64,000 bases of DNA from positions 66,050 to 130,049 of the IMG/VR virus record IMGVR_UViG_3300028042_000002; one strand, written 5' to 3'. The notes beneath the pieces were generated by a model, which saw nothing but the letters and a program-made list of their open reading frames with translations, searched no databases and was not told the DNA's origin. Both the position numbers and the translations under genes were made by a program. Position 1 is the stretch's first letter. The number at the start of each line of letters is the position of its first letter. This document shows positions 2,557 to 63,994 of the stretch, one piece after another. This DNA is from a virus. Lineage: Duplodnaviria; Heunggongvirae; Uroviricota; Caudoviricetes.

Positions 2557-4347
2557 TTATTTCAGATTAGGCAATTTCATTACATCTACATCATTTTTAC
2601 CTAATTTAAATGTAGTTGTATTCATCAATAAATCAATTTCATTATCATTAATTTTCATGGACTTATCTTTAAATTGCATATCATTTTTAATGTCATCTCT
2701 ACTTTTTAACCATCCTTTCAATAAACCGTGTTGAACATTTAATAATTTCATAAAATCTTGATTAAATTTAATATGAAAATTGCCATTTTTATAACTTCGC
2801 ACAGCCATGAAAATAAATTGTTCATCATTATCATATTTAGTACAGTAATAATTATGAATAGAGTTGTCATTATATGATAAAGATTTCCATGAAGTAATCA
2901 TATTAAATCCTAAATTTTCGGCAATAATCATAATATCTTTAATGAAATTAGTTGCACGTTCAGGTAAATTAGTATGATTATCACATTCATATTGTGAATA
3001 ATAGCTTGTATAACCAGTCAAAATGATACGATAATCTAATGTAACAGCACCATAACTATCTGCCTTTCTCCACATTGTATTATATTCATCAAAATATTTC
3101 TTATTACTTTTATATGCAGTAGTTGAAGCGTCATTCATCATACATTCAAAAATATTAATTAACTGTTCATCGTAATATTGATTAGCAATTTTTAATATCA
3201 TTCCTGTAATTGCATAACAATTTTCATTATTAAAATCCAGTTGATTATTATTATCCATTGTTGATAAAATCTTACTTAGTGTTACACTTGTTAAATGTTT
3301 GGTAATAGGTGTATAATTCTTAAATAATTCAGTCCAATATTGACGTTTTAATGATGATAATTTCTTCTTTAAAGTATCTGAAATATTGGTTAATTTTACG
3401 TCAAACTCTTTAAGTACATCTTTAGGAATTTGTACTAACTGTTTGTAAACATTAAACAATTTGTCATTATCTCTAGTATATAATTGGACTAAAGCTCCCA
3501 CAATTGATTGACATTTTACAATTTCATTATCTAAACGTTTGGCAAATTCATCCTCACTTGATTTAGTGTTATCAATATCTTCATTATATTGATTAGTGGT
3601 ATCATGAGTAGCCACAAAATTATTAAATAATAAATCAAATGGATTAACTTTAACCGAATTAATTTTAATATCTTTAAAATTTGAGGTGTAATCAACTTTA
3701 ATAATATCAATATTTGCCCGTGCCTTACGTTCACCATCTAAGAAATTATCAGAATGAATTACAGTTACAATTGCTTTACGTGATTTAATAGCTACATTAA
3801 TTTCATGATTATCTTTCCATCTATCTGGTACAATTAAATACATTAATTTACAATTACTTTCATTTAATAATTTAATCATAAATTGTTCATATTCCGAATA
3901 AGGTGGATTACAGAAAACAATTTCCATAGGTTTATCAACTAATGAACATGAATGTAAATCTGCACCAATAAATCTAATATCATTATCAGGGTTAGTAATA
4001 TAATTATCAATTAAAAGTTGTGATTTTTCAATAGCATATAATTCTAAATTGGGGATAATATTATTAATTGTAATATAATCCGCAAGGTGTAATAAAGCGA
4101 CACAATTACCAGCACCAATATCCAAAATTGAATAATATTCACGATCATGGAAATTATTAGATCTATAACTATCTTCAAATTGATTATAATGTTTAGAAAT
4201 ATTATCAGTAATAATATCTAACATATCAGTTGTAGTTGGGTAAAATTCAAAATCTTGGTTAGATTGTTTTAATTGTTTAACAAGTTGAACAGTTGAAGTC
4301 ATAATAATTAAATAATAAATGTGAATTAAGGAGCTGTAATAATACAA
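2557..4347 (-). CDS. SAM-dependent N6-adenine/N4-cytosine (NPPY-class) methyltransferase, large form
   Basis: Motif I 'LDIGAGNCV' and motif IV 'FCNPPY' in the N-terminal half. 596 aa. Confidence 0.6.
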   Translation of the reverse strand: MYYYSSLIHIYYLIIMTSTVQLVKQLKQSNQDFEFYPTTTDMLDIITDNISKHYNQFEDSYRSNNFHDREYYSILDIGAGNCVALLHLADYITINNIIPNLELYAIEKSQLLIDNYITNPDNDIRFIGADLHSCSLVDKPMEIVFCNPPYSEYEQFMIKLLNESNCKLMYLIVPDRWKDNHEINVAIKSRKAIVTVIHSDNFLDGERKARANIDIIKVDYTSNFKDIKINSVKVNPFDLLFNNFVATHDTTNQYNEDIDNTKSSEDEFAKRLDNEIVKCQSIVGALVQLYTRDNDKLFNVYKQLVQIPKDVLKEFDVKLTNISDTLKKKLSSLKRQYWTELFKNYTPITKHLTSVTLSKILSTMDNNNQLDFNNENCYAITGMILKIANQYYDEQLINIFECMMNDASTTAYKSNKKYFDEYNTMWRKADSYGAVTLDYRIILTGYTSYYSQYECDNHTNLPERATNFIKDIMIIAENLGFNMITSWKSLSYNDNSIHNYYCTKYDNDEQFIFMAVRSYKNGNFHIKFNQDFMKLLNVQHGLLKGWLKSRDDIKNDMQFKDKSMKINDNEIDLLMNTTTFKLGKNDVDVMKLPNLK

Positions 4348-5084
4348 TAAATTTAATCAAATTAAATAAATAATTATATGTAAATTAACAATACAGTTAA
4401 TATTTATTACATTATGGCTTACGCCTGCGTGTGATAATTCAAAGAAATAAAGTTAATTACATTATTAAGCTATTTAAAGTGGTTAAATAATTTAAATATA
4501 GCCTACTATCAATTTAATATAATAATTCCATTTAAGAGCATTTAACCTAATTAAATCGTATATTTACTATGGCGGAAATCTTATCAAATATAAATTAATA
4601 ATAAATAAATATATAATTATAAGAAATATGACTATGAACATAACAAATAATACAATAAACATGATGATATCAAGATAGATACCACTATAAACAATATAGG
4701 TTAAAGAATAATATAATCAAACATTAGAATAATAATAAATTAATATAATAACAATATAGAATAATATTTAAACAATATAGTTCACTATGGTAATGATAGG
4801 AATATAAATCATAAATGATTAACTGCTCTATACAGCAATACTATTATGTTGCTTTTTTTTATTTTTGGAGATGTTGACTAGAATGACAGCTAGACCCCCT
4901 ATATTAGCATTTACTAATGAAAACTTTCGTGGGATTTGACCCAAAATTAGAAATATTACAATGTAAGTTGTTGATTTATAAGTAATATTAAAAATAAATT
5001 AATAAAATATTGACAATTTAACCTGTATTCATATAAATAATGATATAATTAAAATTCTTATTGATAATAATTAAGGTTGATTAA

Positions 5085-5270
5085 ATGAATATTCCAGTTA
5101 AATTGAAAAAAAGTATTAAAGGTCGCCCGCGTATAGAAATTGATATTGATTTAGCAATAAAATATCTAAATGGTGGGTACAATCTTTCGAGTGTGGCGGA
5201 GGAGATGGGAATTGCAAAATCTACATTATGTTTGAAAGTTAAACAATATAAAGAAATCCATAAATCATAA
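5085..5270 (+). CDS. small HTH DNA-binding protein (module copy A)
   Basis: 'KGRPRIEIDIDLAIKYLNGGYNLSSVAEEMGIAKSTL' is a resolvase/IS630/AlpA-like HTH. Paralogs at 18316-18528 and 63163-63402. Confidence 0.6.
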   Translation: MNIPVKLKKSIKGRPRIEIDIDLAIKYLNGGYNLSSVAEEMGIAKSTLCLKVKQYKEIHKS

Positions 5271-5338
5271 ACATAAAAAAGCTAGAAAGGTAATTACATT
5301 TTACCAATCTAGCCAACATGTTCACATTAAATATTACA

Positions 5339-5655
5339 AGGCATCTATCGTAAGAGTCCCTACTTTTGCGAAAGCTCATTTTGGGCATCCCAGCCCAAGT
5401 TCGCGGCAAAAGCTTAACGGGACTAATTATAATCTTCGATGCCCCGATTCGTCCTGCGTCCGTGACGTCTTCGTACAAGTATCGTTTCACTCGATGAACT
5501 ACGACACCACTACCTCAAATGACCTTTACGGCGATGAGAGCTGTTTTTCACCTTCTTCGTCAGTTCACTCTCGTTCTCAACTACGAATGCGCTAAACAGC
5601 ATCGCCTATCGGGGACTAATCGCCTTCGTTTCACTCTCCATGGCGATCAGCGCAT
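5339..5655. other. GC-rich (about 50% GC) noncoding island; candidate structured RNA or origin with TTCACTC and CGGGACTAAT direct repeats
   Basis: Abrupt composition shift. Long imperfect hairpin (ggcatc..gatgcc, agtccc..gggact, cttttgc..gcaaaag). TTCACTC occurs three times. Confidence 0.45.
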
Positions 5656-7003
5656 GAACAAAACTTCTATTAAACATCTTCTTTTAAGCGAATTAAATAA
5701 ATATAAAACTCGTTTATCGGATGAACCATCATTATACATCAATAATACTATTTATAACAAGTTAAAAGTTGTGAATATTAATAATTTTAAGAAGTATTAC
5801 CCAAAATTAACCCGAGTTGAAATCACAAATTTATTATATCTTATTATAAATCATAACTTTATCCATTTAAAGCAAGATGATAAACAAGGTTATAATATCA
5901 TAAAAATTTATGAAGTTTCAGGAATAAACGTGCAAGTTGGCAGAAAGATATTTACTTCTAAATTATTTACCGAACTTTTAAAATTATTACTTGACAATGA
6001 AATTATTATCAAAGTTAAAAATTATCAAAGTAAGTCACACTCCAACCAATATAAATTAAATGATAATATTATTAGCAAGATGACCACATGCCAAGGTAAA
6101 ATTATTAAATTATCGCCATTCGTCCTAAAATATAAAATTAAATTTTGCACATTAAAAATAGTTAAAACTGTTAAAGATGATATATATCCATACAAATATT
6201 TATTATTAAGCACACTAAAAACTTTAAATACTGTCCAATTTCCAACCATTGAAGAAGTTGAAAAACGATTAGATGAGGCTGTTAAAAATGGTGAAAGTAA
6301 CAAAGGTAAAATATATAAAAATTATAATGATTATAGAAATCTTGTTGACAAATCTAAATATACAAACATTCAAAACATTAAAAAAGTGTTTTTATATTTA
6401 ACAACTGGATTGATATTTTCAAGGAGTGAAGAGTTTGGCAGAATTTATACATCATTTAATATGATACCAACTATCACTCGCAATATGTGTAAATTAAATA
6501 ATAATGAATTAGTTGGATTAGATTTTAATGCACTCCATCTTAATATTGCACAATCATTAGCAGTTAAACATTATGACCATGATATTAAAGATTATAATGA
6601 AATTACTCATGATAATATTGCATCCTATATGAAAATATCACGTCAAGAGGTCAAAATAGACAATTTAAGCCTACTTAACCGAAATTTGGAAGATGGGTAC
6701 GACTATAATAATAAACGTTGGGAAAAAGGCTTAATAGGAACTCCTACAGTAAATTACTTTTTAGAGTGCATCCCAGTTTTATATAATTATATTGTACAGA
6801 AAGGCGATAAAGGTATTACAAAATTTCTATTTAATATTGAAACTAAATTGATGGATAAAATTGCTATGAAATTGTTATATAGTGGTATTAATTTTATGTA
6901 TATTTTTGATGAGATAATGGTAGAGTCGAAGTATAAAATTAATGTTAGAAAGTTGATGCTGATGGAAGCTAAAAGAATGTGGATATTGGCAGGAGTTGGA
7001 TAA
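5654..7003 (+). CDS. large conserved protein of the 3-copy module (possible primase/replication-initiator component); start reset to MNKTS
   Basis: About 60% identity to the 61826-63166 ORF. The N-terminal extension in the ORF track lies in the GC island and is not conserved in the paralog. Confidence 0.55.
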   Translation: MNKTSIKHLLLSELNKYKTRLSDEPSLYINNTIYNKLKVVNINNFKKYYPKLTRVEITNLLYLIINHNFIHLKQDDKQGYNIIKIYEVSGINVQVGRKIFTSKLFTELLKLLLDNEIIIKVKNYQSKSHSNQYKLNDNIISKMTTCQGKIIKLSPFVLKYKIKFCTLKIVKTVKDDIYPYKYLLLSTLKTLNTVQFPTIEEVEKRLDEAVKNGESNKGKIYKNYNDYRNLVDKSKYTNIQNIKKVFLYLTTGLIFSRSEEFGRIYTSFNMIPTITRNMCKLNNNELVGLDFNALHLNIAQSLAVKHYDHDIKDYNEITHDNIASYMKISRQEVKIDNLSLLNRNLEDGYDYNNKRWEKGLIGTPTVNYFLECIPVLYNYIVQKGDKGITKFLFNIETKLMDKIAMKLLYSGINFMYIFDEIMVESKYKINVRKLMLMEAKRMWILAGVG

Positions 7004-7072: not shown

Positions 7073-7339
7073 TTATTTAATATTTTCTAAATATGACATT
7101 GCATTATCCAATAAATAAATTGGTGTGATATATTCAGAATTTTTACATTCATTCAACCATACTACAGATTTATTGTTAGATCTTGAAATTAATTCAGTTG
7201 AAATATATACACGATGAATAGCGAGACCATTTGATTTATTTGTTTTTGCTGTGTTGAAAAATAAACCTTTATTAGATGCTAATGTTTTAATATTTTCAAT
7301 TTTTAGGTTGATTAATTGTGCGTTAGTTAATGTAGTCAT
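7073..7339 (-). CDS. small early protein, MTTLTN family
   Basis: N-terminus is MTTLTN. Conserved promoter, UTR and SD upstream. Confidence 0.5.
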   Translation of the reverse strand: MTTLTNAQLINLKIENIKTLASNKGLFFNTAKTNKSNGLAIHRVYISTELISRSNNKSVVWLNECKNSEYITPIYLLDNAMSYLENIK

Positions 7340-7389
7340 AATATTTATTCCTGTTAGTTTGGTTTGCTTTATTGCTTAACATGCAAAGA

Positions 7390-7417
7390 AGTATACTCTT
7401 ATTTTCATTATTGTCTA
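7390..7417 (-). promoter_or_regulatory. early sigma70-like promoter (TAGACA-16-TATACT)
   Basis: Part of a conserved cassette. Confidence 0.5.
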
Positions 7418-7493
7418 GTTATTTATTCAATTATTTTAAATGAATTTAATTATTCAACAATATCAACAACTTACCAACTTAGTCATATAATAA

Positions 7494-7501
7494 TATAAAT
7501 A
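7494..7501 (+). promoter_or_regulatory. T4-late-type promoter TATAAATA
   Basis: TATAAATA lies 37 nt upstream of the 7538 ATG, in the conserved cassette 'catataataatataaatattaataacc'. Confidence 0.5.
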
Positions 7502-7537
7502 TTAATAACCATCCTCCAACCATATAATAATATAAAA

Positions 7538-7951
7538 ATGTCCGATAAAATAGCAGAATTCCTTGATATTTCAGAACTGTCAACCATTGATGAAACTACA
7601 CCCATTATGGATATAGTCACTCATACACATAATAATACTGACATAAAATTAAACAGTATTACAGATTATGCCGAAGTTCGAGCCAACCTTAAACGATTAT
7701 CAACAAAAGGTATGCAGGTGATTGATAGTCTTGCTAAAATGGCAATAGAGGCTCAATCTGCTAGAGATTATGAAGTTTTAACATTATCATTAAAGAATTT
7801 AACTGAAATTAATTTAAGTTTATTAGATGTTAATGAGAAAGCTGGTAAATTGTTGATAGATGAACGAATGTTGAATGAAAATGGGAAAGGTGTGGATGAT
7901 GGAACAATTGATGTTACAGTTGAGCAGTTGCAGAAATTATTAAAAGAATAA
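7538..7951 (+). CDS. hypothetical late protein
   Basis: ORF after a late promoter. Hairpin terminator follows. Confidence 0.5.
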   Translation: MSDKIAEFLDISELSTIDETTPIMDIVTHTHNNTDIKLNSITDYAEVRANLKRLSTKGMQVIDSLAKMAIEAQSARDYEVLTLSLKNLTEINLSLLDVNEKAGKLLIDERMLNENGKGVDDGTIDVTVEQLQKLLKE

Positions 7952-8312: not shown

Positions 8313-8504
8313 TTATTTAGTAACAAGCTCAACAAGATTAGTTAAATCTTTATTTGTAATATTATCATTATCAATGTCATTTACTAAATTTTCACATAAT
8401 GATTTAAGTTGTTCAATTTCATCATTAATATTACTAACTTTACGATTTAATTGAATTTTAAGAGTGGTTACTACAATTTTATTACTTTGAGATATTTTAG
8501 TCAT
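8313..8504 (-). CDS. small early protein
   Basis: ORF with the conserved 'cctgttag' SD region upstream. Confidence 0.4.
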   Translation of the reverse strand: MTKISQSNKIVVTTLKIQLNRKVSNINDEIEQLKSLCENLVNDIDNDNITNKDLTNLVELVTK

Positions 8505-8596
8505 AATCTTAATTCCTGTTAGTTGTTTAAGTTGTTTCGATATGAAAGAGTGTACTCTTATAATATCAACAAGTTACCAACTTAGTCATATAATAA

Positions 8597-8604
8597 TATA
8601 AATA
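8597..8604 (+). promoter_or_regulatory. T4-late-type promoter TATAAATA
   Basis: Conserved cassette upstream of 8632. Confidence 0.45.
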
Positions 8605-8631
8605 CTTAATATCACACCGCACTAGCACAAT

Positions 8632-9624: not shown

Positions 9625-9918
9625 TTAGATTAAATCTTCGGCAATACTTTCAGCACTATTGTAAACAATTTCATCATCTTCATTGTAATAATAAAAACTA
9701 TCACAACATTGTTCAGTATCATCAATCCAAATTTCATCATCTAAAATATCATCTTTTGGGTCATCAGTTGGACAATATGTATTAGTGCATAAAAATTCAT
9801 ATGTTACTTCACCGTAACCATTAACACCAATTCTTGCTGATGTTGAATTGTTATCCATTAAATCTAAATAAATTTGAGCAACTTGTAATGCAATTTCAGA
9901 GTTTGTTAATGTAGTCAT
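9625..9918 (-). CDS. small acidic Cys-containing early protein, MTTLTN family
   Basis: N-terminus is MTTLTN. Conserved promoter cassette. Confidence 0.5.
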   Translation of the reverse strand: MTTLTNSEIALQVAQIYLDLMDNNSTSARIGVNGYGEVTYEFLCTNTYCPTDDPKDDILDDEIWIDDTEQCCDSFYYYNEDDEIVYNSAESIAEDLI

Positions 9919-9968
9919 AATATTTAATCCTGTTAGTTAGTTAGGCTTTATTGCTTAACTTGGATACT

Positions 9969-9996
9969 ATTATACTCATTTTTTAATACATGTCAA
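9969..9996 (-). promoter_or_regulatory. early sigma70 consensus promoter (TTGACA-16-TATAAT)
   Basis: Minus strand reads TTGACAtgtattaaaaaatgagTATAAT. Identical to the one at 13316-13343. Confidence 0.6.
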
Positions 9997-10070
9997 CTAA
10001 ATTATGAAATTAATTAAAGTTATTTTAATTATCTAATAATATCAACAACTTACAAACAGTCATATAATAA

Positions 10071-10078
10071 TATAAATA
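10071..10078 (+). promoter_or_regulatory. T4-late-type promoter TATAAATA
   Basis: Conserved cassette upstream of 10119. Confidence 0.45.
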
Positions 10079-10118
10079 TTAACAACCATCTCCACACCGT
10101 ATAATAATATAATCAAAT

Positions 10119-10828: not shown

Positions 10829-11419
10829 TTATAAATTCATTAAACTTTTTAAATCATCATTTGCAACGGCTAATTTCATTGCTTCAAGTTTATCATTTTG
10901 TAATTTTACAATTTCTTCTTGTTGATTAATGATTTTATTTACAAGTTGTTGTTCCATATCAGATAATTCAACTTTAGTTGTTACTTCTTCGTCATTATTA
11001 AACATTTTATCAAATTCAATCATGAATTCATTAATAATTGAATATAGTGCATCATCCAAAGTATTCCATTTTTCTTCACAATCCATTGTTGGTTTCTGAT
11101 AATTATCATTAGTAATTTCTTCATTATCATTTTCCCAATCTTCAAAAAATTGTTTATTATCTAATTCAATATTAAACCTTTTCATAATTTTTAACAAGTT
11201 AATGCCACTTTCACTATTTGATAATTCACTCATTTCAAAAAGATTAATCATTTCATTATGTAAAGTTAATTCTTCAACATTAGCACCAAAACACCCATTT
11301 CCATTGGTATCACAACCATTTGAGTAATATTGATAATGTCCACCCTTATTTACTTGATTTACATAATTTGATAATAAAGTTTCTAAACGAGTTGTTTCAG
11401 TTGTAGTTAATGTAGTCAT
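10829..11419 (-). CDS. acidic early protein, MTTLTT family
   Basis: N-terminus is MTTLTTTE. Conserved cassette upstream. Confidence 0.5.
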   Translation of the reverse strand: MTTLTTTETTRLETLLSNYVNQVNKGGHYQYYSNGCDTNGNGCFGANVEELTLHNEMINLFEMSELSNSESGINLLKIMKRFNIELDNKQFFEDWENDNEEITNDNYQKPTMDCEEKWNTLDDALYSIINEFMIEFDKMFNNDEEVTTKVELSDMEQQLVNKIINQQEEIVKLQNDKLEAMKLAVANDDLKSLMNL

Positions 11420-11471
11420 AATATTTATTCCTGTTAGTTAATTAGTTGTTTAAGTTGCTTCGATATAAAAG

Positions 11472-11499
11472 AGTATACTCCCATTTTCACTATTGTCTA
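11472..11499 (-). promoter_or_regulatory. early promoter (TAGACA-16-TATACT)
   Basis: Conserved cassette. Confidence 0.5.
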
Positions 11500-11621
11500 G
11501 TTATTTATTCAATTATTTTAAAATAAATTAATTATCTAATAATATCAACAAGTTACCAACTTAGTCATATAATAATATAAATATTAATAACCATCAAATC
11601 ACTTTATAATAATATAAAACT

Positions 11622-11909
11622 ATGTCAAAACCTGCTCATCGCACCACCGATTTATGCACTGGTCATTCATGTTACCCGCCACGCCGAAGTAAAACAGGTT
11701 CACCAGATGTCATAATAAATGATAAATTGGCTCATAGATTAGGTGATAGTTGGAATACTCATTCATGTGGGAGGTATGGTCATAAAGGTGAAACTGTAAC
11801 CGCATCTATGTATGTTATTATAAATGATAAAGGGTGCGCACGAATTGGGGATGATGTGAGTTGTGGTAGTGTGATAATGACAGGTTCAAATGATGTTATA
11901 GTTGATTAA
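11622..11909 (+). CDS. gp5.4: PAAR-repeat tail-spike tip protein (T4 gp5.4-like)
   Basis: 95 aa. PAAR-like motifs: 'AHRLGDSW', 'ARIGDDVSCGSVIMTGSNDVIV'. Cys/His-rich. Late promoter upstream. Confidence 0.7.
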   Translation: MSKPAHRTTDLCTGHSCYPPRRSKTGSPDVIINDKLAHRLGDSWNTHSCGRYGHKGETVTASMYVIINDKGCARIGDDVSCGSVIMTGSNDVIVD

Positions 11910-11957: not shown

Positions 11958-12650
11958 TTATCTAGCTAACATTACATATCTAGCATAATCATAACCTTGT
12001 GTATCAATATAAATAGTTTCTCTGTCTGTTGATACTAATGCAAATCCTGTCCAATAATCAATATTATCAGTTTCTTCATTATAACCATCATCAATATATG
12101 AAACATTAAACTTTTTACGACTTTTAAGTAAATTATTTACAATTTTATCATATTTTTTAGTTTTAACATTGATAATTTTAATCACTTTAAATTTAGTTTC
12201 AATGAATTTCTGCTCACATTCAAACCGAACCTCACCAATTGTACAATTTTTATTTAACCATGGATTTTTAACATTAACAATTTGATTAAGTTGTGGTAAA
12301 TATGATACACATTCACAATTTTGTAATGCTTCTGTACGGTTAATTCTATATAAATCTTTAGCTTTTTGTTCATCATCTTCCCGCTTCCAAATTTTAAATA
12401 AAAATTCATATTCAGTATCTAAAATATTTTGAAGATTAACTTTAACATCAGCTAAAGTTTTAAATGTCTCTAAATATCCCATACCATTCATTAAATATTC
12501 TTTAGTATCAGGTTTTAAATTAAAAAATATACACCAACCTCCAAATTGTTTTTGGATATAAACATCGGCGAAATATTTTGTGTCTTGAGTTTCATATTTA
12601 CAACTGCTTTCATCATATTTAGCTTTAATTCTAGTATAAGTACGTTTCAT
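11958..12650 (-). CDS. hypothetical protein
   Basis: 230-aa ORF with an early promoter cassette upstream. Confidence 0.5.
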   Translation of the reverse strand: MKRTYTRIKAKYDESSCKYETQDTKYFADVYIQKQFGGWCIFFNLKPDTKEYLMNGMGYLETFKTLADVKVNLQNILDTEYEFLFKIWKREDDEQKAKDLYRINRTEALQNCECVSYLPQLNQIVNVKNPWLNKNCTIGEVRFECEQKFIETKFKVIKIINVKTKKYDKIVNNLLKSRKKFNVSYIDDGYNEETDNIDYWTGFALVSTDRETIYIDTQGYDYARYVMLAR

Positions 12651-12801
12651 AATTTTTAATCCTGTTAGGTTGCGGTTAAAAAGTTAACTAATTTGCTTAA
12701 CTTGGATACTATTATACTCATATTTTAACTATTATCTAGTTATTTATTCAATTATTTTAAAATGAATTTAATTATTCAACAATATCAACAACTTACCCTC
12801 A

Positions 12802-13197: not shown

Positions 13198-13233
13198 ATT
13201 GCGATAAGAAATAAGGTGATTAGAGGTTATTAA

Positions 13234-13241
13234 TATTTATA
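13234..13241 (-). promoter_or_regulatory. T4-late-type promoter TATAAATA (minus strand)
   Basis: The reverse complement tatttata is followed by 'ttaataacc', as in the other cassettes. Confidence 0.45.
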
Positions 13242-13315
13242 TTATTATAAATTTGATTGTAAGTTGTTGATATTATTAGATATTTAAATTCATTTAAAAT
13301 AATTGAATAATTTAG

Positions 13316-13343
13316 TTGACATGTATTAAAAAATGAGTATAAT
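13316..13343 (+). promoter_or_regulatory. early sigma70 consensus promoter
   Basis: TTGACAtgtattaaaaaatgagTATAAT, followed by the conserved leader 'agtatccaagttaagca' and an AGGAAT SD. Confidence 0.6.
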
Positions 13344-13394
13344 AGTATCCAAGTTAAGCAGTAACCAATTAATCAACTAACAGGAATAATTATT

Positions 13395-13535
13395 ATGAAC
13401 ATGAATAACTTTGTTAAAATGGCGTTAGAAACTGCAATTGAAATTACAGGTAAAGATGGTAAAGATGAAGAAACACAAAAAATTGCATTTGAATTAGCAT
13501 GTGTAATGATGGCTGATGAATTAGCAAATAATTAA
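13395..13535 (+). CDS. small ORF (about 46 aa) upstream of parB-like gene; not in ORF track
   Basis: ATG 8 nt after the AGGAAT SD. Encodes 'MNMNNFVKMALETAIEITGKDGKDEETQKIAFELACVMMADELANN'. Confidence 0.35.
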   Translation: MNMNNFVKMALETAIEITGKDGKDEETQKIAFELACVMMADELANN

Positions 13536-13622: not shown

Positions 13623-14516
13623 ATGGCTACACAAATCAAAGGTTTAATCGGTGGTACTCGTGCAACTAACTTTTTCAAAATTGACCCAGAATTAATTATT
13701 ATTCAAGAAGGGTTTAATCCTCGCGATAGTTCTAACATTGACCCACTTGAATTATATGAAAGTATTAAAGAAAATGGTGTAGTATCTCCACTTATCATCA
13801 AATTAGATAAAGACGGTAATGTACTTTTAGTTGACGGTGAACGTAGATTAACTACGGTTTTAAAATTGATTGAAGATGGTGTAGACATTCAATCTGTGCC
13901 ATGTTTAAAAATTAACAAATCTCAAGATAACGAAGTTGATTTGTTAATGATGGCAATGATTGCAAACGATAGCAAACAATTAACACCATTAGAATTTAGT
14001 GAGACCTTCGCTAGATTGTTAAAATATGGGTTAAAACCTGCTGAAATTGCTAAAAAAGTAGGTAAAAGTCGGGGATGGGTTGATAATATGATTATCTTAA
14101 ATAACCTTAATCCATCTTTGAAACAAGAATTAAGAAATGGTGTAATTACGTTAAATATTGCGTTGGATATTGTACGTGAAAATCAAGGTGATTATGAAGC
14201 CCAAAATGAAGATTTTAAAATCATTACTGAAAATGCTGAAATTATTACTGAAACTGTAATAAATGAAGATAATGAACCAGTTGAAAAAGTTGTTAAAACT
14301 AAATTATATTCAAAAGGGTCAATGAAGCCTGTTAAATTGGGTGTTGCTAAAGAAATTCTTAAGGCAGTTGCATTCAATGATGAAGAATTAGAAGATTTAG
14401 CCAATCTTAAACAACTTATTGATAAATATACAACCGATGATAAAAGTATTTCGAATGTTGAAATGAAAGCATTTGCACTTGGAATGATGGCGGCTAAAGG
14501 TAAATATATGGTTTAA
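13623..14516 (+). CDS. parB: ParB-like nuclease/partition domain protein
   Basis: N-terminal ParB box 'VDGERRLTTV', then an HTH 'KPAEIAKKVGKSRGWVDNMIIL'. 297 aa. Confidence 0.7.
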   Translation: MATQIKGLIGGTRATNFFKIDPELIIIQEGFNPRDSSNIDPLELYESIKENGVVSPLIIKLDKDGNVLLVDGERRLTTVLKLIEDGVDIQSVPCLKINKSQDNEVDLLMMAMIANDSKQLTPLEFSETFARLLKYGLKPAEIAKKVGKSRGWVDNMIILNNLNPSLKQELRNGVITLNIALDIVRENQGDYEAQNEDFKIITENAEIITETVINEDNEPVEKVVKTKLYSKGSMKPVKLGVAKEILKAVAFNDEELEDLANLKQLIDKYTTDDKSISNVEMKAFALGMMAAKGKYMV

Positions 14517-17400: not shown

Positions 17401-17628
17401 AATAATATTTATAATTATTTAATGGTTTAAATTTAATAATGATTTTAAAGTGGATAAGTTATTGAATACTATTTATTACTATGAAAAGATAAAACCTGCG
17501 TGTGATAATTCAAAGGCATTACTATATATTAATATAAATTTAGTACTGGATTAATATTGGGAATGGTTTTAAATTGGTTAATGTGTTAATAATATTTATT
17601 AAAATTATAATGTAATCCAGTTGAACAA

Positions 17629-17952
17629 TATTTATTACTATGGACGCTTCGCTTAGGTGTGCAAAATTCAAGGCATTATGATAAATTATTAGTTGATTAA
17701 TATTAAGCCATTTAAGCCAGTTGAATTATAATATCTACTACTTACTATTACTTTATGATTATGATTAAATTTAGCAATGGTTTTATAGTTGTTTGATATG
17801 GTAAAAGTTAGGTCATTATATTACATTGTAAGAATTGTATAATATTTATCAAAATTAATTAATATTAATAGAAGTAAGTCAAGTGGAAAATGTAATCAAT
17901 ATTATTCTTTCGAATTATCACACCAAAGCGAAGCGTCTAAAGTAATAAATTA
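17629..17952. repeat. about 320-bp noncoding element bounded by 45-bp inverted repeats (ATTTATTACT.TGGACGCTTCGCTTAGGTGTG.AAATTC); related direct copies at 17471-17521 and 4400-4445
   Basis: 17642-17661 'ggacgcttcgcttaggtgtg' pairs with 17921-17940 'cacaccaaagcgaagcgtc'. No ORF inside. Confidence 0.5.
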
Positions 17953-17969
17953 GTAATATGACCATTAAA

Positions 17970-18218
17970 GGGTCATTAATATTAAAATGGGTCATTGTCT
18001 CTAGCTGTTGATGTTATTAGTGTTTACTATACATAATGACCTAATGACCATATAAATTAATAAATATAATAATAATATAGTAGTAGTAAAACATATAACG
18101 TAAGTTGAATGGATATTATAGTCATTGGGTCATAATAACATATAAGTAGTTGATTTATATCATGTTTATATGATGACCCATTATTAATTTACTAACTATA
18201 TTAAATTGAAAGGGTCAC
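17970..18218. promoter_or_regulatory. cluster of at least 7 GGGTCA(T)/TGACC(C) repeats upstream of HTH gene (candidate operator/iteron array)
   Basis: Motif copies at 17970, 17989, 18035 (rc), 18044 (rc), 18127, 18175 (rc), 18212. Confidence 0.4.
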
Positions 18219-18315
18219 TAAATAATTTATATTGAAGATATTTATAATTTATTAAAGGTAATAATCATATTTATTATAAATACTGTTATAATAGAGTTTC
18301 ATAATAAAACGATAG

Positions 18316-18528
18316 GTGATAAAAATGGCTTTAGATGTTAATAAATTAGTAAAAAATATAAAAGGTGCAGGAGCTTATAAAGATGTTGATATGGTGGAGA
18401 TTATGGAGTTAAAGAAACAAGGTTACACATATTCAAGTATGGCAGAGCAATTAGGTATCACAAAAGTTACACTTTCTAGGAAAGTTGCAGAATATAAAAA
18501 AGAATTATTAAAACGTAAAGGAAATTAA
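18316..18528 (+). CDS. small HTH DNA-binding protein (module copy B)
   Basis: 'QGYTYSSMAEQLGITKVTLSRKVAEYKKE' is paralogous to the 5085 and 63163 proteins. Confidence 0.6.
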   Translation: MIKMALDVNKLVKNIKGAGAYKDVDMVEIMELKKQGYTYSSMAEQLGITKVTLSRKVAEYKKELLKRKGN

Positions 18529-18531
18529 AAC

Positions 18532-19725
18532 ATGATAAACCAATCAAATATGATAGATAAATCAGCATTAGAAATTTTTGAAATATTTTTAGATGATAAT
18601 TCACATAAAGCAGGTTATGAAAAATTCATTCATCCTGATGGAAATTATATTCCAATATCTGAAATACACGCAGAATTTGACGCATGGTGTTCCAAACTTG
18701 GAGTGTCTGCTAAAGTTTATACCAATAGAAAATTTAAACATACAATGGTGTTATACTACGTGAAATGGCTAAAGGATTATAAATTATATTTAAGTGAAAA
18801 ATTATCAAAATGTCCAATCTCAAACAATCAAACAGAGTGGAAAAAACTCCAAAAATTGACAGAATTTACAGATAATGACATCATCATTTATAAGGCGTTA
18901 ATATGGAAAATTAAAACCCAACTTATAACAAATAAACAAATCAAGATACAATTTCCAATGCCAGTATTATTCAGTACTAAACAAGGCTTGGGTAAATCAT
19001 ATTTTAATAAATTATTATGTGAACCATTAGGCGAACTTTCAATTGAACGTGATATTTCAGTTTTAAACGATGAAAATAATTCTAAATTATTTAAAGATAT
19101 GTTACTTATCAACTTTGATGAAATGGCTAGTCAAACTAAGGAAAGCTTAACAAACCTTAAGAGTATTTTAACTAAAGATGATATCCAATTTAGAGAAATT
19201 TATACAGCTAATCAGATTACAGTAAAAAAGATGTTTTGTAGTGTAGGTTCATCTAATAAATCATTACATGAAATTTTAAATGATACGACAGGCTCGCGTA
19301 GATTATGGCAAGTTAGTTTAATTAAATCAATATATAAGACTATTCATAGTATTGATTTTCTTGAACTGTATCGAGAAGTTGATCACAATAAACCATGTGA
19401 ACTAATGAATGATGAATGTTATACTAAAATAATGGATATTCAACAATCAACCCAGCGTAAAAAGGATATTGTTGAATATTGGATTGAAGCTTGGAATTGT
19501 AATATTAATTATGGTGATATGATAGAAGTTGATATTCCATTAAATAATAGTACATATACTTCTATGTATTTATATAAACATTTTGAAAATTGGTGTATAA
19601 TTAACAATGAAAAAGTATTATCACATAATAAATTTGGTAGAAGTGTTAAAAATTATTTATCAACTGTTTTTATTAAGCACCGTACAAGTAAATTTAAAGG
19701 TTACAAATTTATCACACCACAATAA
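18532..19725 (+). CDS. D5_N-like + VirE-family P-loop NTPase (P4-alpha-type primase-helicase C-terminal module)
   Basis: 'LYAEFDAWC' D5_N-like region. Walker A 'KQGLGKSYF', Walker B 'INFDEMAS', VirE signature 'NDTTGSRRLWQV'. Confidence 0.65.
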   Translation: MINQSNMIDKSALEIFEIFLDDNSHKAGYEKFIHPDGNYIPISEIHAEFDAWCSKLGVSAKVYTNRKFKHTMVLYYVKWLKDYKLYLSEKLSKCPISNNQTEWKKLQKLTEFTDNDIIIYKALIWKIKTQLITNKQIKIQFPMPVLFSTKQGLGKSYFNKLLCEPLGELSIERDISVLNDENNSKLFKDMLLINFDEMASQTKESLTNLKSILTKDDIQFREIYTANQITVKKMFCSVGSSNKSLHEILNDTTGSRRLWQVSLIKSIYKTIHSIDFLELYREVDHNKPCELMNDECYTKIMDIQQSTQRKKDIVEYWIEAWNCNINYGDMIEVDIPLNNSTYTSMYLYKHFENWCIINNEKVLSHNKFGRSVKNYLSTVFIKHRTSKFKGYKFITPQ

Positions 19726-20578: not shown

Positions 20579-20890
20579 ATGAGCATTCATAAATGTATCC
20601 AGTGTAATACCATAAAAGAATGTTATTCAAGCCTTAATAAAATTAACGATATAGTTGATTGTTGGATTTATATATGTAAAGATTGTCGAGATGATAATAT
20701 TAAATCAAATATTGAAAATTTTAATGATGACACAAGTTACACAAATGAAATAATATGCCCTCATTGCGGCTACGTTGAAGATGTTAGCTGGGAATATGCT
20801 GATAATAATGATAGAATCAATTGTCCTGAATGTGATAACAACTTTAATTATAATCGTAATATTGAAGTAACATATTCAACTAATAAATAA
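20579..20890 (+). CDS. zinc-ribbon protein (4 CxxC)
   Basis: CIQC, CKDC, CPHCG and CPEC motifs. Confidence 0.45.
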   Translation: MSIHKCIQCNTIKECYSSLNKINDIVDCWIYICKDCRDDNIKSNIENFNDDTSYTNEIICPHCGYVEDVSWEYADNNDRINCPECDNNFNYNRNIEVTYSTNK

Positions 20891-20900
20891 GGTAAATACA

Positions 20901-61256: not shown

Positions 61257-61802
61257 TTACATTTTAGATATAAATTTAAAGCATCTTAAACCGCCCTTTC
61301 GACATTTATTAAATTGACCACTTAAATAATTATTTAAATCTCGACTAAATTTAATATTACTAATAATTTTAATATTGCCAACTGTACACCCGTTTTCGAA
61401 ATGTTTATATAAGTTGGAGGATGAATAAATTTTATTAGGTTCTGCTTGAATAATTGGTTCACATTCACCATAATTTACATTATCAAGCCAATCTATATAC
61501 AATAATTCAACAATAGTCTTTTTACGTTGGGTTTCATAATTCTTTAATTCATCTTTATGTTCCTTTAACCATTCTTTATGATGTAAAACAAGTGTAAGTT
61601 TAAACTTAGTTTTATTATAATATTTACGGGGCACTTTAAGGTCAAAACACCACGCATCAAATTCTGCATAAAGTTCGGATTGAAAAATTTCATCATCATT
61701 TAAATCTATAAATTTTAAATATCCTGTTTTATATTCACGAAAATCCAAAAAAGTTTGAAATATTTCTAATGGTGTTTTATTTTCTATTGTTGTCATATTC
61801 AT
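61257..61802 (-). CDS. truncated D5_N-like fragment (paralog of N-terminus of 18532-19725; helicase part missing)
   Basis: 'LYAEFDAWCFDL' is shared with the paralog's 'IHAEFDAWCSKL'. Ends before the Walker A region. Confidence 0.5.
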   Translation of the reverse strand: MNMTTIENKTPLEIFQTFLDFREYKTGYLKFIDLNDDEIFQSELYAEFDAWCFDLKVPRKYYNKTKFKLTLVLHHKEWLKEHKDELKNYETQRKKTIVELLYIDWLDNVNYGECEPIIQAEPNKIYSSSNLYKHFENGCTVGNIKIISNIKFSRDLNNYLSGQFNKCRKGGLRCFKFISKM

Positions 61803-61825: not shown

Positions 61826-63166
61826 TTAGCTTACATTGGATAAAATATTTAAATTTCTGCTACAGTTAATCATCGTATCATATAGGACTATTTTATTTTT
61901 AATTTCAACCATTAATTCATCAAATACATATAAAAAAGACATACCTGAATATAATAATACCTTGGCAATCTTATCCATTAATGAACTTTCATTATTAAAT
62001 AAAAATTTAGTAATACCTTTATTACCCATTTCCAATATATAATTATATAAAACTGGAATATGACGTTGAATATAATTCATAGTTGGAGTATTTAATGAGC
62101 CTTTCTCCCATCGTTCATTTTTATAATCATAACCATCATTTAAATTTCTATTAAGGATGCTAAGATTGTCTATTTTGACTGATTGGCGGGTAACATTCAT
62201 AGAGTTTGCAATATTATCATGAGTTATTTCATTATAATCATTTATATTATGGTTGTAGTGATTAACTGCCAAAGCTTGTGCGATATTAAGATGTAAACCA
62301 TTAAAATCTAATCCAACTAATTTATTATTGTTAAGTTTGCACATGTTACGGGCAATGGTTGGTAATAAATTAAATGATGTATAAATTCTGCCAAAGTCTT
62401 TACTAATTGAGAATATTAAATCATTGATTAAGTAGTTGAAAGTGTTTTTAGAGTTTTCAATATCAATATATTTACTTTTATCTTCCATTTTAATATATTG
62501 TTTATGGTTTAAATATACTCGACCCTTGTTAATTTCGCCATTCTCAACCGCTAATTCTAACCTTCTTTCAAATTCTTCAATAGTTGGAAATGTAATATCT
62601 CTGTAAGTATAAATACAACCTAATAATAAATGTAAATATTTGTACTCTGCGTTTGCAATAATATTATTTAATTTTAATATAGAGGATTTAGTTTTATATT
62701 TAGTTACTCGTGGTGATAATCTAATATCTTTATGTTTACAATTATAACGTTTACTTATGATATTATCATTTAATTTATATTTATTTGAACTTTTACCTAC
62801 TTTATACGATGCAGTCTTATAAATAATATTGTTATTGGTTAATAATTTTAATAATCGTGGAAATAATATCCTATTGAATATATTTTTACCATTTTCAAAA
62901 TTTATTCCAGCCTCTTCTGCAATAATAACATTTGTATCTATGCGTTCATCTCTTTTTACGCTAATAAAATTATTCTGAATTAATAGATACATCATATCGG
63001 TAACATCTTTCTTACTATATGAAGTGTTACCAATTTTAAATTCTTTAACTTTAATCTTAAATAATTCCCTATATATTGCATTATTAGCATATATGTAATT
63101 ATTTTTATCCAATGTCTTTTTATATTCAATTACAGCATTTTTTAATTTGTGTTTAATATCAATCAT
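61826..63166 (-). CDS. large conserved protein of the 3-copy module (paralog of 5654-7003)
   Basis: About 60% identity over about 330 aa ('GRIYTSFN..PTI.RNMCKLNNN.LVGLDFN.LHLNIAQ'). Confidence 0.6.
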   Translation of the reverse strand: MIDIKHKLKNAVIEYKKTLDKNNYIYANNAIYRELFKIKVKEFKIGNTSYSKKDVTDMMYLLIQNNFISVKRDERIDTNVIIAEEAGINFENGKNIFNRILFPRLLKLLTNNNIIYKTASYKVGKSSNKYKLNDNIISKRYNCKHKDIRLSPRVTKYKTKSSILKLNNIIANAEYKYLHLLLGCIYTYRDITFPTIEEFERRLELAVENGEINKGRVYLNHKQYIKMEDKSKYIDIENSKNTFNYLINDLIFSISKDFGRIYTSFNLLPTIARNMCKLNNNKLVGLDFNGLHLNIAQALAVNHYNHNINDYNEITHDNIANSMNVTRQSVKIDNLSILNRNLNDGYDYKNERWEKGSLNTPTMNYIQRHIPVLYNYILEMGNKGITKFLFNNESSLMDKIAKVLLYSGMSFLYVFDELMVEIKNKIVLYDTMINCSRNLNILSNVS

Positions 63167-63402
63167 TTTTTTAATTTTCCTAAATTTGGTTTCTTTGCTT
63201 TCATTGTTCTTTTTGGTTTTAAATTATGTTCCTTTCTATACGCATGAACCCTCTTATATAACGTGCATTTATTTACACCTAATGCATCGGCAATACTTTC
63301 ATGAGTATATCCTTCGTCCTTCAATTTCATAACCAATTCAATATCAATAACAACACCCCATGCAGTTTGTTTTAATTTACTTCTATCTAAATCCGAATTC
63401 AT
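63163..63402 (-). CDS. small HTH DNA-binding protein (module copy C)
   Basis: 'EGYTHESIADALGVNKCTLYKRVHAYRKE' is paralogous to the other two HTH proteins. Confidence 0.6.
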   Translation of the reverse strand: MNSDLDRSKLKQTAWGVVIDIELVMKLKDEGYTHESIADALGVNKCTLYKRVHAYRKEHNLKPKRTMKAKKPNLGKLKK

Positions 63403-63904
63403 AATATTACCTAATTTGTTTAATTGTTATGGTATTATAACAGTATTTATACATATTGAATTTAAAGTTGAATATAAAGTGTAAAAAATTATATAATAAT
63501 ATAAATATCTACCAATTTTGAAAAGTTTTAATAAATTAATTATTATATAAATCAATGACTTATAATTTTGTAATTCTGAACGTTTTATTATTACAAAAGT
63601 TGAAAATGTATAGTCTAGCTGTCATTCTAATAATGTTTACCCAAAATTGAAAATGACCCACATTATATATATGGGGCATATGTAAATATGCTTTATTAAT
63701 TTGTTTCATAAAGAAACATAATTATCAAATATTCTTTAAGAAAACATTGTACTACTATGATAAATATTATTGATATGATTATTGTCTTACTATACTGTTA
63801 AATATTGAATGGATTATCTTGATAGTACTAATCTTGATTATTATGATAATAAATTTAATTTAAATTTTGATTATATGTCAGAATATAGTGAATATATAGT
63901 GAGA

Positions 63905-63994
<90 letters not shown>

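What the first reader, a model, noticed from the sequence alone, without database searches (positions are those of the whole stretch)
4348..7003. Three diverged copies of an HTH + large-protein + D5_N/VirE primase-helicase module inside a T4-like genome (copy A)
Copy A consists of four parts: a noncoding region carrying shared motifs (GTGTGATAATTCAAAG at 4424; 'tagaatgacagctagac' at 4877), an HTH gene (5085-5270), a GC-rich structured spacer, and a 450-aa protein. Copy C (61257-63660) is its inverted paralog. It carries the same noncoding motif, an HTH gene, the large protein and a truncated D5_N fragment. Copy B (17401-19725) has an HTH gene and an intact D5_N+VirE NTPase. Taken together the ancestral unit looks like HTH regulator + primase-like protein + P4-alpha/D5-type helicase. 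That is the architecture of satellite, PICI or plasmid replication modules, not of T4 replication genes (gp61 and gp43 are present separately). Three decaying copies in 64 kb suggest a selfish mobile or replicative element family, or captured satellite modules.
Basis: partly seen in the sequence, partly recalled or inferred. Interest (0 to 1): 0.85.

Follow-up and report, generated by a model that had tools for sequence, protein, structure and literature searches.

The report
Mini family-A polymerase replication modules in phage
A very AT-rich T4-like phage carries three diverged copies of a small replication-starter cassette: a DNA-binding protein, a stripped-down family-A-type polymerase that probably makes primers, and a D5-type helicase. 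The kind is already known from mobile elements (TV-Pol / CcPol), but this branch is unannotated, and one copy has been invaded by an undescribed structured-RNA repeat that is also found in a bacterium.

Summary
Copies A (4348-7003) and C (61257-~63900, inverted) share an HTH gene, a ~450-aa protein (55% identical) and upstream motifs. Copy B (17401-19725) has an HTH gene plus an intact VapE/D5-type SF3 helicase. Copy C keeps only the two ends of that helicase.

The large protein has no Pfam, NCBIfam or PADLOC match. With a 42-sequence alignment it folds confidently (pLDDT 91.6). The model is a minimal family-A DNA polymerase / T7-type RNA polymerase palm and fingers behind winged-helix domains, with invariant Arg, Asp, Lys and Asp catalytic-type residues.

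Relatives (PHROG 4756, unknown function) lie in small low-GC phages and in Flavobacterium chromosomal islands, next to serine or tyrosine recombinases and restriction-modification cargo.

This matches the published TV-Pol family (Iyer et al. 2008) and the biochemically proven CcPol-MP/Cch2 primase-helicase of SCCmec. The fold is family A, not AEP, and the polymerase genes are intact, not decaying. No target-site duplications were found.

The "GC-rich spacer" is a discrete ~300-nt structured-RNA repeat, absent from Rfam and also present in bacterial contigs.

Verdict: a new variant of a known kind, of moderate interest.

The parts
4348..5084 (+). Copy A upstream AT-rich noncoding region with shared motifs (4429-4444 GTGTGATAATTCAAAG; 4879-4895 TAGAATGACAGCTAGAC; 4964-4979 TAAGTTGTTGATTTAT). 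Putative origin/regulatory region.
5085..5270 (+). Copy A HTH protein (61 aa). Fis/resolvase-type tri-helical HTH with a GRPR arm-like motif.
   Evidence: (HTH_7 E 6e-4)
5349..5651 (+). GC-rich ~300-nt structured-RNA repeat element inserted between the HTH and polymerase genes. Not part of the ancestral module; copies occur in bacterial metagenome contigs.
   Evidence: no Rfam hit
5654..7003 (+). Copy A TV-Pol-like minimal family-A-fold polymerase (449 aa): N-terminal winged-helix domains plus palm and fingers. Invariant R263, R276, D290, H295, K334, N342, E396, D419.
17401..18315 (+). Copy B upstream noncoding region. A ~50-70-nt repeat occurs at 17462-17534 and 17621-17690, and inverted at 17901-17950. 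Four GGGTCAT iteron-like sites lie at 17970-18179, and TAAGTAGTTGATTTAT at 18143-18158.
18316..18528 (+). Copy B HTH protein (70 aa from GTG 18316; ATG at 18325).
   Evidence: (HTH_8 3.6e-5)
18532..19725 (+). Copy B intact SF3 helicase (397 aa): VapE-like_dom, DUF5906 and a C-terminal Pox_D5 domain. Walker A 'GLGKS' and Walker B 'INFDE' are readable in the translation.
61257..61802 (-). Copy C helicase derivative (181 aa). The N- and C-terminal domains are retained, the ATPase core is deleted in frame, and the ORF is still open.
61826..63166 (-). Copy C TV-Pol-like polymerase (446 aa), 55% identical to copy A. Its start overlaps the HTH stop (ATGA).
63163..63402 (-). Copy C HTH protein (79 aa).
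   Evidence: (HTH_23 1.4e-6)
63403..63900 (-). Copy C upstream noncoding region with TAGAATGACAGCTAGAC (63613-63629), TAAGTCATTGATTTAT (63547-63562) and one GGGTCAT (63653-63659). It ends in a ~100-nt homopolymer tract.

Best explanation
The three loci are diverged descendants of one replication-initiation cassette of mobile-element type. The cassette has a small HTH DNA-binding protein, a minimal family-A-fold polymerase of the TV-Pol kind (winged-helix DNA-binding domains fused to a bare palm and fingers, with no exonuclease), and a D5/VapE-type SF3 helicase. All three genes lie downstream of an AT-rich, repeat-bearing noncoding region.

Inferred mechanism:
1. The HTH protein and/or the polymerase's winged-helix domains recognise repeats in the upstream region, which acts as the origin.
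2. The helicase opens and unwinds the DNA.
3. The polymerase starts strands de novo, acting as a primase-polymerase as shown for SCCmec CcPol-MP.
4. A processive replisome then extends them. Here that would be the phage's own gp43 machinery; in islands and small phages it would be the host's.

In this genome no locus is complete. A has HTH + polymerase, B has HTH + helicase, and C has HTH + polymerase + an ATPase-less helicase stub. Any activity would therefore need parts acting in trans.

Shown: homology among the copies, the fold, conservation of catalytic-type residues, and genomic contexts. Inferred: primase activity, origin function of the upstream regions, and mobile-element ancestry in this phage.
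For: - Copies are homologous and share upstream motifs found nowhere else in the window.
- The AF2 model from a 42-sequence alignment has pLDDT 91.6 and pTM 0.90.
- In Foldseek against PDB, all 50 listed matches, out of 58 with E<=1e-3, are family A DNA polymerases.
- The best BFVD matches are 400-450-aa phage proteins, some labelled 'putative DNA polymerase I'.
- Invariant residues R276, D290, K334 and D419 across 42 members, with R263 nearly invariant there (invariant among the 12 closest members), plus the motifs DFSxLHPNIA / RxEVKIEHLSFFN / YVYDA, parallel family-A motifs A, B and C.
- Family contexts: the gene sits behind 200-1400-nt AT-rich gaps in small low-GC phages, with no canonical replication gene within 5.5 kb.
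- In Flavobacterium chromosomes the neighbours include Resolvase (12), large serine recombinase (6), tyrosine integrase (6), HTH_3 (5) and type I RM cargo.
- Literature: TV-Pol is defined by exactly these features and contexts, including D5 helicase linkage, resolvase/integrase linkage, Bacteroidetes hosts and an element inside a myophage genome (PMC2579912). CcPol-MP is a biochemically proven family-A primase with a partner helicase that binds iterons (PMC7581432; PMC10061031).
- The phage has its own gp43 and gp61, and 80 other T4-like gp4 neighbourhoods lack the modules.
Against: - No sequence-level link to a bona fide TV-Pol or PolA was obtained. There was no Pfam hit. The profile did not match Ma-LMM01 ORFs, including its small PolA gp178.
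- In the wider family the polymerase is not usually next to an SF3 helicase.
- There is no OB-fold partner ORF between polymerase and helicase in copy C, where the gap is 23 nt. In CcPol that partner was required for priming.
- No integrase, att sites, TSDs or TIRs in the window.
- The base composition of the modules equals that of the phage, so any acquisition is old.
- DNA versus RNA product, and priming itself, are untested. His295 sits where family-A DNA polymerases have the steric-gate Glu.
Confidence: 0.6

Rival explanations
1. Domesticated origin-initiation systems of the phage itself. Each module marks one of several replication origins of this T4-like genome. The family-A-fold enzyme lays down the origin primer, a job done in T4 by host RNA polymerase transcripts. 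The one intact helicase (copy B) would serve all origins.
For: - Both polymerase genes and the copy-B helicase are intact.
- Each module has a long AT-rich upstream region with its own repeats and a shared motif.
- Composition is indistinguishable from the host phage.
- No mobility signatures were found.
- The parts are complementary across loci.
Against: - Absent from 80 other T4-like gp4 neighbourhoods.
- Relatives live in integrative islands and small phages.
- The helicase stub in copy C looks like loss, not design.
- There are no replication data.
Confidence: 0.2
2. The large protein is a miniature single-subunit RNA polymerase used for transcription of some phage or element genes, with the HTH protein as specificity factor or regulator. 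It would not be a replication protein.
For: - The position of the family-A steric-gate Glu is His, not Glu.
- In small phages the gene is first after a long intergenic region, as an early gene would be.
Against: - Several small phages with the gene also encode sigma factors.
- It is linked to an SF3 helicase here and to recombinases in islands. These are replication and mobility contexts, as in TV-Pol and CcPol.
Confidence: 0.1
3. Inert remnants: old insertions of a selfish element that no longer function and are simply decaying.
For: - No locus is complete.
- The helicase core is deleted in copy C.
- The polymerase is missing in copy B.
- A foreign repeat element is inserted in copy A.
Against: - At ~25% GC, roughly 9% of random codons are stops (my calculation). 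Open frames of 449, 446, 397 and even 181 codons after divergence to 45-55% identity therefore imply purifying selection.
- All ten family-invariant residues are kept in both polymerases.
Confidence: 0.08

Closest known systems
TV-Pol family (Iyer, Abhiman & Aravind 2008, Biol Direct 3:39; PMC2579912)
   Same: [quoted passage not shown]
- Linked or fused to D5-like helicases in viruses and prophage remnants, or found next to gamma-delta resolvases or integrases near RM operons.
- Present in Bacteroidetes and inside a myophage genome (Ma-LMM01).
- Predicted to be primase-polymerases. All of these features are seen here.
   Different: - No sequence-level bridge to a named TV-Pol member could be made with the tools at hand.
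- The N-terminal region is modelled as alpha/beta winged-helix domains rather than the 'all-helical' domain described.
- Three diverged, mutually incomplete copies in one T4-like genome have not, to my knowledge, been described.
CcPol-MP primase with Cch2 helicase of SCCmec, and the PolA-SSB primases of Bacillota (PMC7581432; PMC10061031)
   Same: - A family-A polymerase domain used as a primase in an operon with a helicase.
- Carried on elements moved by serine recombinases that also carry restriction-modification cargo.
- The helicase binds iterons near its gene.
- The Flavobacterium islands found here have the same recombinase + polymerase + defence-cargo logic.
   Different: - No OB-fold 'MP' gene lies between polymerase and helicase (copy C gap 23 nt).
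- CcPol retains part of the 3'-5' exonuclease domain, whereas this protein has winged-helix domains instead.
- Hosts are Bacteroidota and low-GC phages, not Bacillota.
- A separate HTH gene precedes the polymerase.
P4 alpha / poxvirus D5 / SaPI-PICI pri-rep type primase-helicases
   Same: - The same functional layout: an origin-binding function, a primase and an SF3 helicase, encoded beside their origin.
- The copy-B helicase matches VapE-like_dom, DUF5906 and Pox_D5 and PHROG 'DNA primase/helicase' families.
   Different: - The primase moiety there is Toprim or AEP and is usually fused to the helicase. Here it is a separate family-A-fold protein.
- No integrase, packaging-hijack genes or att sites are present to make this a satellite.
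Small T7-like RNA polymerases (N4 RNAPII, T7 RNAP, mitochondrial RNAP)
   Different: This protein is much smaller. It has no recognisable promoter-specificity loop or N-terminal domain of the T7 type, and its genomic contexts are recombinases and helicases.

Membership tests
TV-Pol (Iyer et al. 2008) | Stand-alone globular protein of about 400-600 residues without nuclease domains | tested here: met
   The window proteins are 449 and 446 aa, and relatives are mostly 400-620 aa. There are no Pfam nuclease hits. The model has no exonuclease domain.
TV-Pol (Iyer et al. 2008) | Two conserved acidic residues in the RRM-like palm | tested here: met
   D290 and D419 are invariant in 42 sequences. They lie on strand 284-291 and hairpin 415-424 of the model.
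TV-Pol (Iyer et al. 2008) | [quoted passage not shown] | tested here: met
   R263 is nearly invariant in A2 and invariant in A5, beside strands 255-257/264-266. R276 is invariant.
TV-Pol (Iyer et al. 2008) | Fingers module with RxxxK motif (helix O equivalent) | tested here: met
   K334 is invariant and R330 is present in most members ('R-x-E-V-K'), on helix 330-342.
TV-Pol (Iyer et al. 2008) | Gene-neighbourhood or fusion with a D5-like helicase, or with resolvase/integrase/transposase near RM operons | tested here: met
   A helicase stub lies directly downstream in copy C, and its intact paralogue is in copy B. In genome loci the neighbours include Resolvase 12, Recombinase 6, Phage_integrase 6 and type I RM 3.
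TV-Pol (Iyer et al. 2008) | Detectable sequence homology to named TV-Pol members (e.g. Sputnik V13, Ma-LMM01, CcPol) | tested here: inconclusive
   The A2 profile found nothing in the 112 kb of the Ma-LMM01 genome that was searched. The structural-gene stretch from 50 to 100 kb was fetched but never searched with the profile. hhalign to gp030, gp134 and gp178 was negative. Which Ma-LMM01 ORF is the TV-Pol is not stated in the text read. No other named member was available.
TV-Pol (Iyer et al. 2008) | N-terminal all-helical accessory domain (subset linked to recombinases) | tested here: not met
Family A DNA polymerase (Pfam DNA_pol_A) | Sequence match to the curated family model | tested here: not met
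   No Pfam hit at E<=0.1 for the window proteins, and none at E<=0.01 for 42 family members. There is no PDB sequence hit.
Family A DNA polymerase (Pfam DNA_pol_A) | Palm and fingers fold with motifs A, B and C | tested here: met
PolA-SSB primase (CcPol-MP type) | Small OB-fold partner gene between polymerase and helicase | tested here: not met
   In copy C the polymerase stop (61826) and the helicase-stub start (61802) are 23 nt apart, with no ORF between them.
   No Pfam or PHROG primase hit. The fold matches are family A / T7-type polymerases only.
D5/VapE-type SF3 helicase (copy B protein) | VapE/DUF5906 P-loop core with Walker A/B and a C-terminal Pox_D5 domain | tested here: met
   VapE-like_dom 8.1e-18, DUF5906 4.9e-9, Pox_D5 2.1e-8. 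'GLGKS' and 'INFDE' are readable in the translation. D5_N was not detected.
Phage satellite (PICI / P4 / PLE type) | Integrase plus att sites and helper-exploitation (packaging or capsid-redirecting) genes | tested here: not met
   No integrase or recombinase ORF in or beside any copy. No flanking repeats beyond chance.
Known RNA families (for the 5349-5651 element) | Match to an Rfam 15 covariance model | tested here: not met
   No match at gathering score or at E<=10.

The most novel reading that the evidence does not exclude
This T4-like phage has replaced transcript-primed origin firing with a distributed, trans-complementing set of origin-specific family-A-fold primases. There would be two polymerases with different winged-helix/HTH specificities, one shared SF3 helicase and an ATPase-less helicase adaptor, each encoded beside the origin it serves. 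The family (PHROG 4756, hundreds of Flavobacterium island and small-phage members) would then be a third major class of replicative primase in Bacteroidota mobile elements.
Probability: 0.15. Interest if true: 0.75.

Novelty: new variant of a known kind. Interest (0 to 1): 0.5.

Why it matters
- It assigns a fold and a testable function (origin-specific primase-polymerase) to a sizeable unannotated protein family. The family has no Pfam model, corresponds to PHROG 4756 'unknown', and includes at least 732 'hypothetical' Flavobacterium homologues.
- It extends the TV-Pol / CcPol idea of family-A polymerases acting as primases from Bacillota cassettes to Bacteroidota islands, small phages and a T4-like genome.
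- It gives a natural three-copy, mix-and-match system in which the specificity of polymerase, HTH protein and helicase could be dissected.
- The inserted RNA repeat, shared at 100% identity over about 105-126 nt with bacterial contigs, is a possible host clue and an undescribed structured RNA.

Tried and rejected
Searches on the large protein:
- Pfam, NCBIfam and PADLOC gave nothing. PHROGs gave nothing for the two window proteins, though 34 of 42 family members match the unannotated phrog_4756.
- PDB sequence searches gave nothing.
- AF2 with only the two paralogues failed, with pLDDT 32.
- The word-indexed 5.8-billion-protein search found only the protein itself and its paralogue, and four hits with the profile.
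- tblastn of window or metagenome members against GenBank phages found nothing. Only the family consensus found Aeromonas phages.

Tests of linkage and mobility:
- Looked for the copy-B helicase or the HTH next to family members in 26 loci: none.
- Looked for close relatives of the helicase in IMG/VR: none.
- Tried to confirm TV-Pol membership against Microcystis phage Ma-LMM01. gp030, gp134 (a DnaG-type primase) and gp178 (a small canonical PolA) did not match the profile.
- Flanking direct or inverted repeats are not above shuffled controls.
- Promoter-consensus scanning is uninformative at this AT content, with 35 sites versus 25±5 expected.

Ideas rejected:
- That the GC-rich spacer is a family-associated RNA. 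It has no similarity to the regions upstream of other family members, and it occurs on its own in bacterial contigs.
- Defence-system membership.

The afdb50 fold library was unavailable.
Full report
**1. What the window is**

The window is 25% GC throughout and encodes T4-type proteins:
- major capsid protein (gp23)
- portal (gp20)
- large terminase
- tail sheath
- a family B DNA polymerase carrying an intein with a LAGLIDADG domain
- ribonucleotide reductase
- two RNA ligases
- a gp4-type head-completion protein
- a gp61-like primase at 41581-42597, a small terminase, and a ParB-like protein

No tRNA and no Rfam family reaches threshold. An independently assembled ENA contig of 58.6 kb is 100% identical to window 5352-63927. 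The co-occurrence of the three loci on one molecule is therefore not peculiar to this assembly. No close relative of the phage exists in IMG/VR; the best gp4 identity is 58%.

**2. The observation**

- The two large proteins are 55% identical over 444 residues. The alignment starts at residue 51 of the long 5519 ORF, so the true start in copy A is the ATG at 5654 (449 aa).
- The copy-B protein is an SF3 helicase: VapE-like_dom 8e-18, DUF5906 and Pox_D5, plus PHROG primase/helicase families. Walker A and B motifs are readable.
- The 181-aa copy-C protein matches its residues 2-84 and 307-395. It is the same gene with the ATPase core removed in frame.
- The three HTH proteins are mutually about 40% identical. 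They weakly resemble Fis/NtrC and resolvase-type HTH domains.
- The 17-mer TAGAATGACAGCTAGAC is shared exactly by A and C, and GTGTGATAATTCAAAG by A and B.
- A third motif, TAAGTNNTTGATTTAT, occurs exactly three times in 64 kb, once 106-167 nt upstream of each HTH start.
- Copy B's upstream region also has a ~50-70-nt unit present twice directly and once inverted. It has four GGGTCAT sites within 210 nt.

The copies are thus one family, old enough to have diverged to about 70% at the DNA level.

**3. What the large protein is**

Curated sequence libraries say nothing about the two window proteins: Pfam, PHROGs, NCBIfam, PADLOC and PDB. An exhaustive HMMER search of 1.84 billion representatives found 207 relatives at E<=1e-3, of which 90 are at E<=1e-10.

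In a 42-sequence alignment, ten residues are invariant: Y133, R276, D290, H295, H319, K334, N342, E396, Y416 and D419 (copy-A numbering). The consensus blocks are DFSxLHPNIA, RxEVKIEHLSFFN and YVYDA. By eye these parallel motifs A (DYSQIELR), B (RRxAKxxNFGxxYG) and C (HDE) of family A polymerases; that comparison rests on my own knowledge.

The alignment gave a confident AlphaFold model, with pLDDT 91.6 and pTM 0.90.
- In Foldseek against the PDB, 58 matches have E<=1e-3, and all 50 listed are family A DNA polymerases.
- Against viral models, the best matches (TM 0.6) are 400-410-aa phage proteins, one labelled 'putative DNA polymerase I'. The 450-aa protein of Aeromonas phage 2L372X is also found.

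The protein is therefore a bare palm-plus-fingers polymerase of the family A / T7-RNAP superfamily. It has no exonuclease domain and is fused to DNA-binding winged-helix domains.

**4. Where the family lives**

- 34 of 42 members match PHROG 4756, which has no annotation.
- In IMG/VR the gene lies in small (10-46 kb) low-GC phage contigs, behind an AT-rich gap of 200-1400 nt. This is often where transcription switches direction. Terminase, portal, HNH endonuclease and sigma-factor genes are nearby, and no canonical replication gene lies within 5.5 kb.
- In species-representative genomes, 17 of 19 loci are Flavobacterium or its relative Lacinutrix, mostly on large chromosomal contigs.
- The neighbours there are small resolvases (12 loci), large serine recombinases (6), tyrosine integrases (6), Cro/CI-type HTH proteins (5), GIY-YIG homing endonucleases (4), and type I restriction-modification or Mrr-helicase cargo. 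These are integrative islands.
- A Flavobacterium member has at least 732 homologues. Almost all are named 'hypothetical protein', and one UniRef entry is named 'DNA-directed DNA po...'.

**5. Comparison with what is known**

The literature search found the relevant precedent. Iyer, Abhiman and Aravind (2008; PMC2579912) described the TV-Pol family as follows:
- A conserved hairpin Arg, two palm Asp and an RxxxK fingers motif.
- Never linked to nucleases.
- Either next to or fused with D5-like helicases in viruses and prophage remnants, or next to gamma-delta resolvases, integrases or transposases near restriction-modification operons.
- Found in Bacteroidetes among others, and in an element inside the myophage Ma-LMM01.
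- Predicted to be primase-polymerases.

Bebel et al. (2020; PMC7581432) showed that one member, SCCmec CcPol, together with the small protein MP, synthesises DNA primers de novo. They also showed that its partner helicase Cch2 binds iterons beside its gene. Rice (2023; PMC10061031) extended this to PolA-SSB primases on Bacillota islands that carry large serine recombinases and conflict cargo.

Every structural and contextual feature of TV-Pol that I could test is met here (see the membership table). Three things remain open or differ:
- I could not obtain a sequence-level bridge to a named member. The profile did not hit the parts of the Ma-LMM01 genome searched, including its small canonical PolA.
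- The N-terminal domain differs from the one described.
- The OB-fold partner of the CcPol type is absent.

I therefore file this as working like a TV-Pol/CcPol-type primase-helicase module and as a probable divergent TV-Pol branch, not as a proven member.

**6. How the three loci relate, and whether they are decaying**

Copy C shows the ancestral order HTH > polymerase > helicase. The HTH stop overlaps the polymerase start, and 23 nt separate polymerase and helicase.
- Copy A has lost the helicase.
- Copy B has lost the polymerase.
- Copy C has lost the helicase motor.

The surviving genes nevertheless look selected. Both polymerases keep all invariant residues, and the helicase keeps its Walker motifs. 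At this base composition about 9% of random codons are stops, so even the 181-codon stub would be open by chance with a probability of about 6e-8. That figure is my own calculation from the composition.

I found no target-site duplications or terminal inverted repeats beyond shuffled controls, and no recombinase in the window. The gp4 neighbourhoods of 80 other T4-like phages lack all three gene types. This shows the modules are accessory to the T4 core. Those phages are too distant to date the insertion.

The composition of the modules equals that of the phage. Together with 45-55% protein identity between copies, this points to old residence or to acquisition from equally AT-rich elements. 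Whether the loci now serve the phage (for example as origins, the second explanation) or a parasite cannot be decided from sequence.

**7. The 'GC-rich structured spacer'**

This is a separate entity.
- It is the only noncoding GC-rich island in the window.
- It folds better than shuffles on both strands, z about -3.7.
- It has no Rfam match even at E<=10.
- A 24-mer from it found four metagenome contigs. Alignment shows a sharply bounded element (window 5349-5651) whose flanks are unrelated from copy to copy.
- Its first ~115 nt are almost identical among copies, and the rest is about 70-80% identical.
- Two of the contigs are bacterial chromosome fragments of 34% GC, with MetK, LspA, DusA, LptB and a GGDEF-EAL protein. 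These contigs end inside the element, as does the ENA phage contig, which is what a multi-copy repeat produces.
- A consensus fold of the three full copies has 73 pairs, of which 11 are kept through changes on both sides. Shuffles give 4.0±1.5 such pairs (0 of 500 reach 11), and slid controls give 0-1.
- G-U pairs and A-U to G-U changes favour the + strand, the strand of the flanking genes.

With only three sequences, and a structure derived from them, this is suggestive rather than conclusive. In three cases the element lies within about 90 nt downstream of a co-oriented ORF (window HTH, L133 PIN-like ORF, L134 metalloprotease-like ORF). What kind of element it is (MITE-like, IS200/IS605-derived or a small RNA gene) remains unexplained. 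Its 100% identity over about 105-126 nt with bacterial copies suggests recent exchange, and possibly points to the host.

**8. Verdict**

It is wrong in detail: the fold is family A rather than AEP, the genes are intact rather than decaying, and the spacer is an independent repeat.
- The kind has been known since 2008 and has been biochemically grounded since 2020. The novelty is a divergent, unannotated branch with winged-helix domains, its triple and mutually incomplete presence in a T4-like genome, and the hitch-hiking RNA element.
- Interest is moderate.

Noticed in passing
window 5349-5651; L131 362-628 and 870-975; L132 1265-1565; L133 1-141 and 4779-4883; L134 1-126: A ~300-nt GC-rich structured-RNA repeat with a sharp 5' boundary (CGTAAGAGTCCCTAC...). 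It is multi-copy in 34%-GC bacterial contigs and present once in the phage. It has no Rfam family, and 11 compensatory pairs are seen among three copies.
   Followed up: partly
window 7322-7542, 8490-8611, 9894-10112, 11395-11626, 12646-12797, 13211-13409 (also 1876-1948, 2503-2568): A separate family of ~150-220-nt intergenic repeats, 75-86% identical, between small genes of the structural region. They are probably repeated promoter or regulatory cassettes.
   Followed up: no
window 30606-34295: The gp43-type family B DNA polymerase carries an intein with a LAGLIDADG homing-endonuclease domain.
   Followed up: no
window 63900-64000: A ~100-nt homopolymer tract, poly(T) on the + strand, lies at the window end. 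The independent ENA contig also ends here. It could be a genome end, a hard-to-assemble tract or an artefact.
   Followed up: partly
window 2557-4347 (-): A 596-aa protein with a weak methyltransferase match and a DUF4942 domain lies directly left of copy A. No PHROG or PADLOC match.
   Followed up: no
window 13623-14516 (+): A ParB-like protein (PHROG 1033, 1.7e-42) sits in the structural-gene region of a T4-like phage.
   Followed up: no
L032 8853-9518, L033 8797-9441, L044 8620-9279, L046 8544-9200: In four Flavobacteriaceae islands a GIY-YIG/NUMOD1 homing-type endonuclease gene lies immediately downstream of the TV-Pol-like gene.
   Followed up: no
L028-L046, region between the small upstream ORF and the polymerase gene (e.g. 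L029 6819-7436, L032 6919-7373, L044 6572-7079): Many Flavobacterium islands have a 430-620-nt noncoding gap between a small ORF (an HTH protein where tested) and the polymerase gene. They were not examined for iterons or RNA structure.
   Followed up: no
L134 10762-11250 (-): A TnpB-like C-terminal fragment lies on the same bacterial contig that carries a copy of the RNA repeat (judged by eye). This hints at IS200/IS605-family activity in that genome.
   Followed up: no
window 25145-25398; 36860-36924 / 37388-37453; 20861-21101 / 21603-21941: Further local direct repeats, 74-93% identical, are seen in the self-comparison.
   Followed up: no
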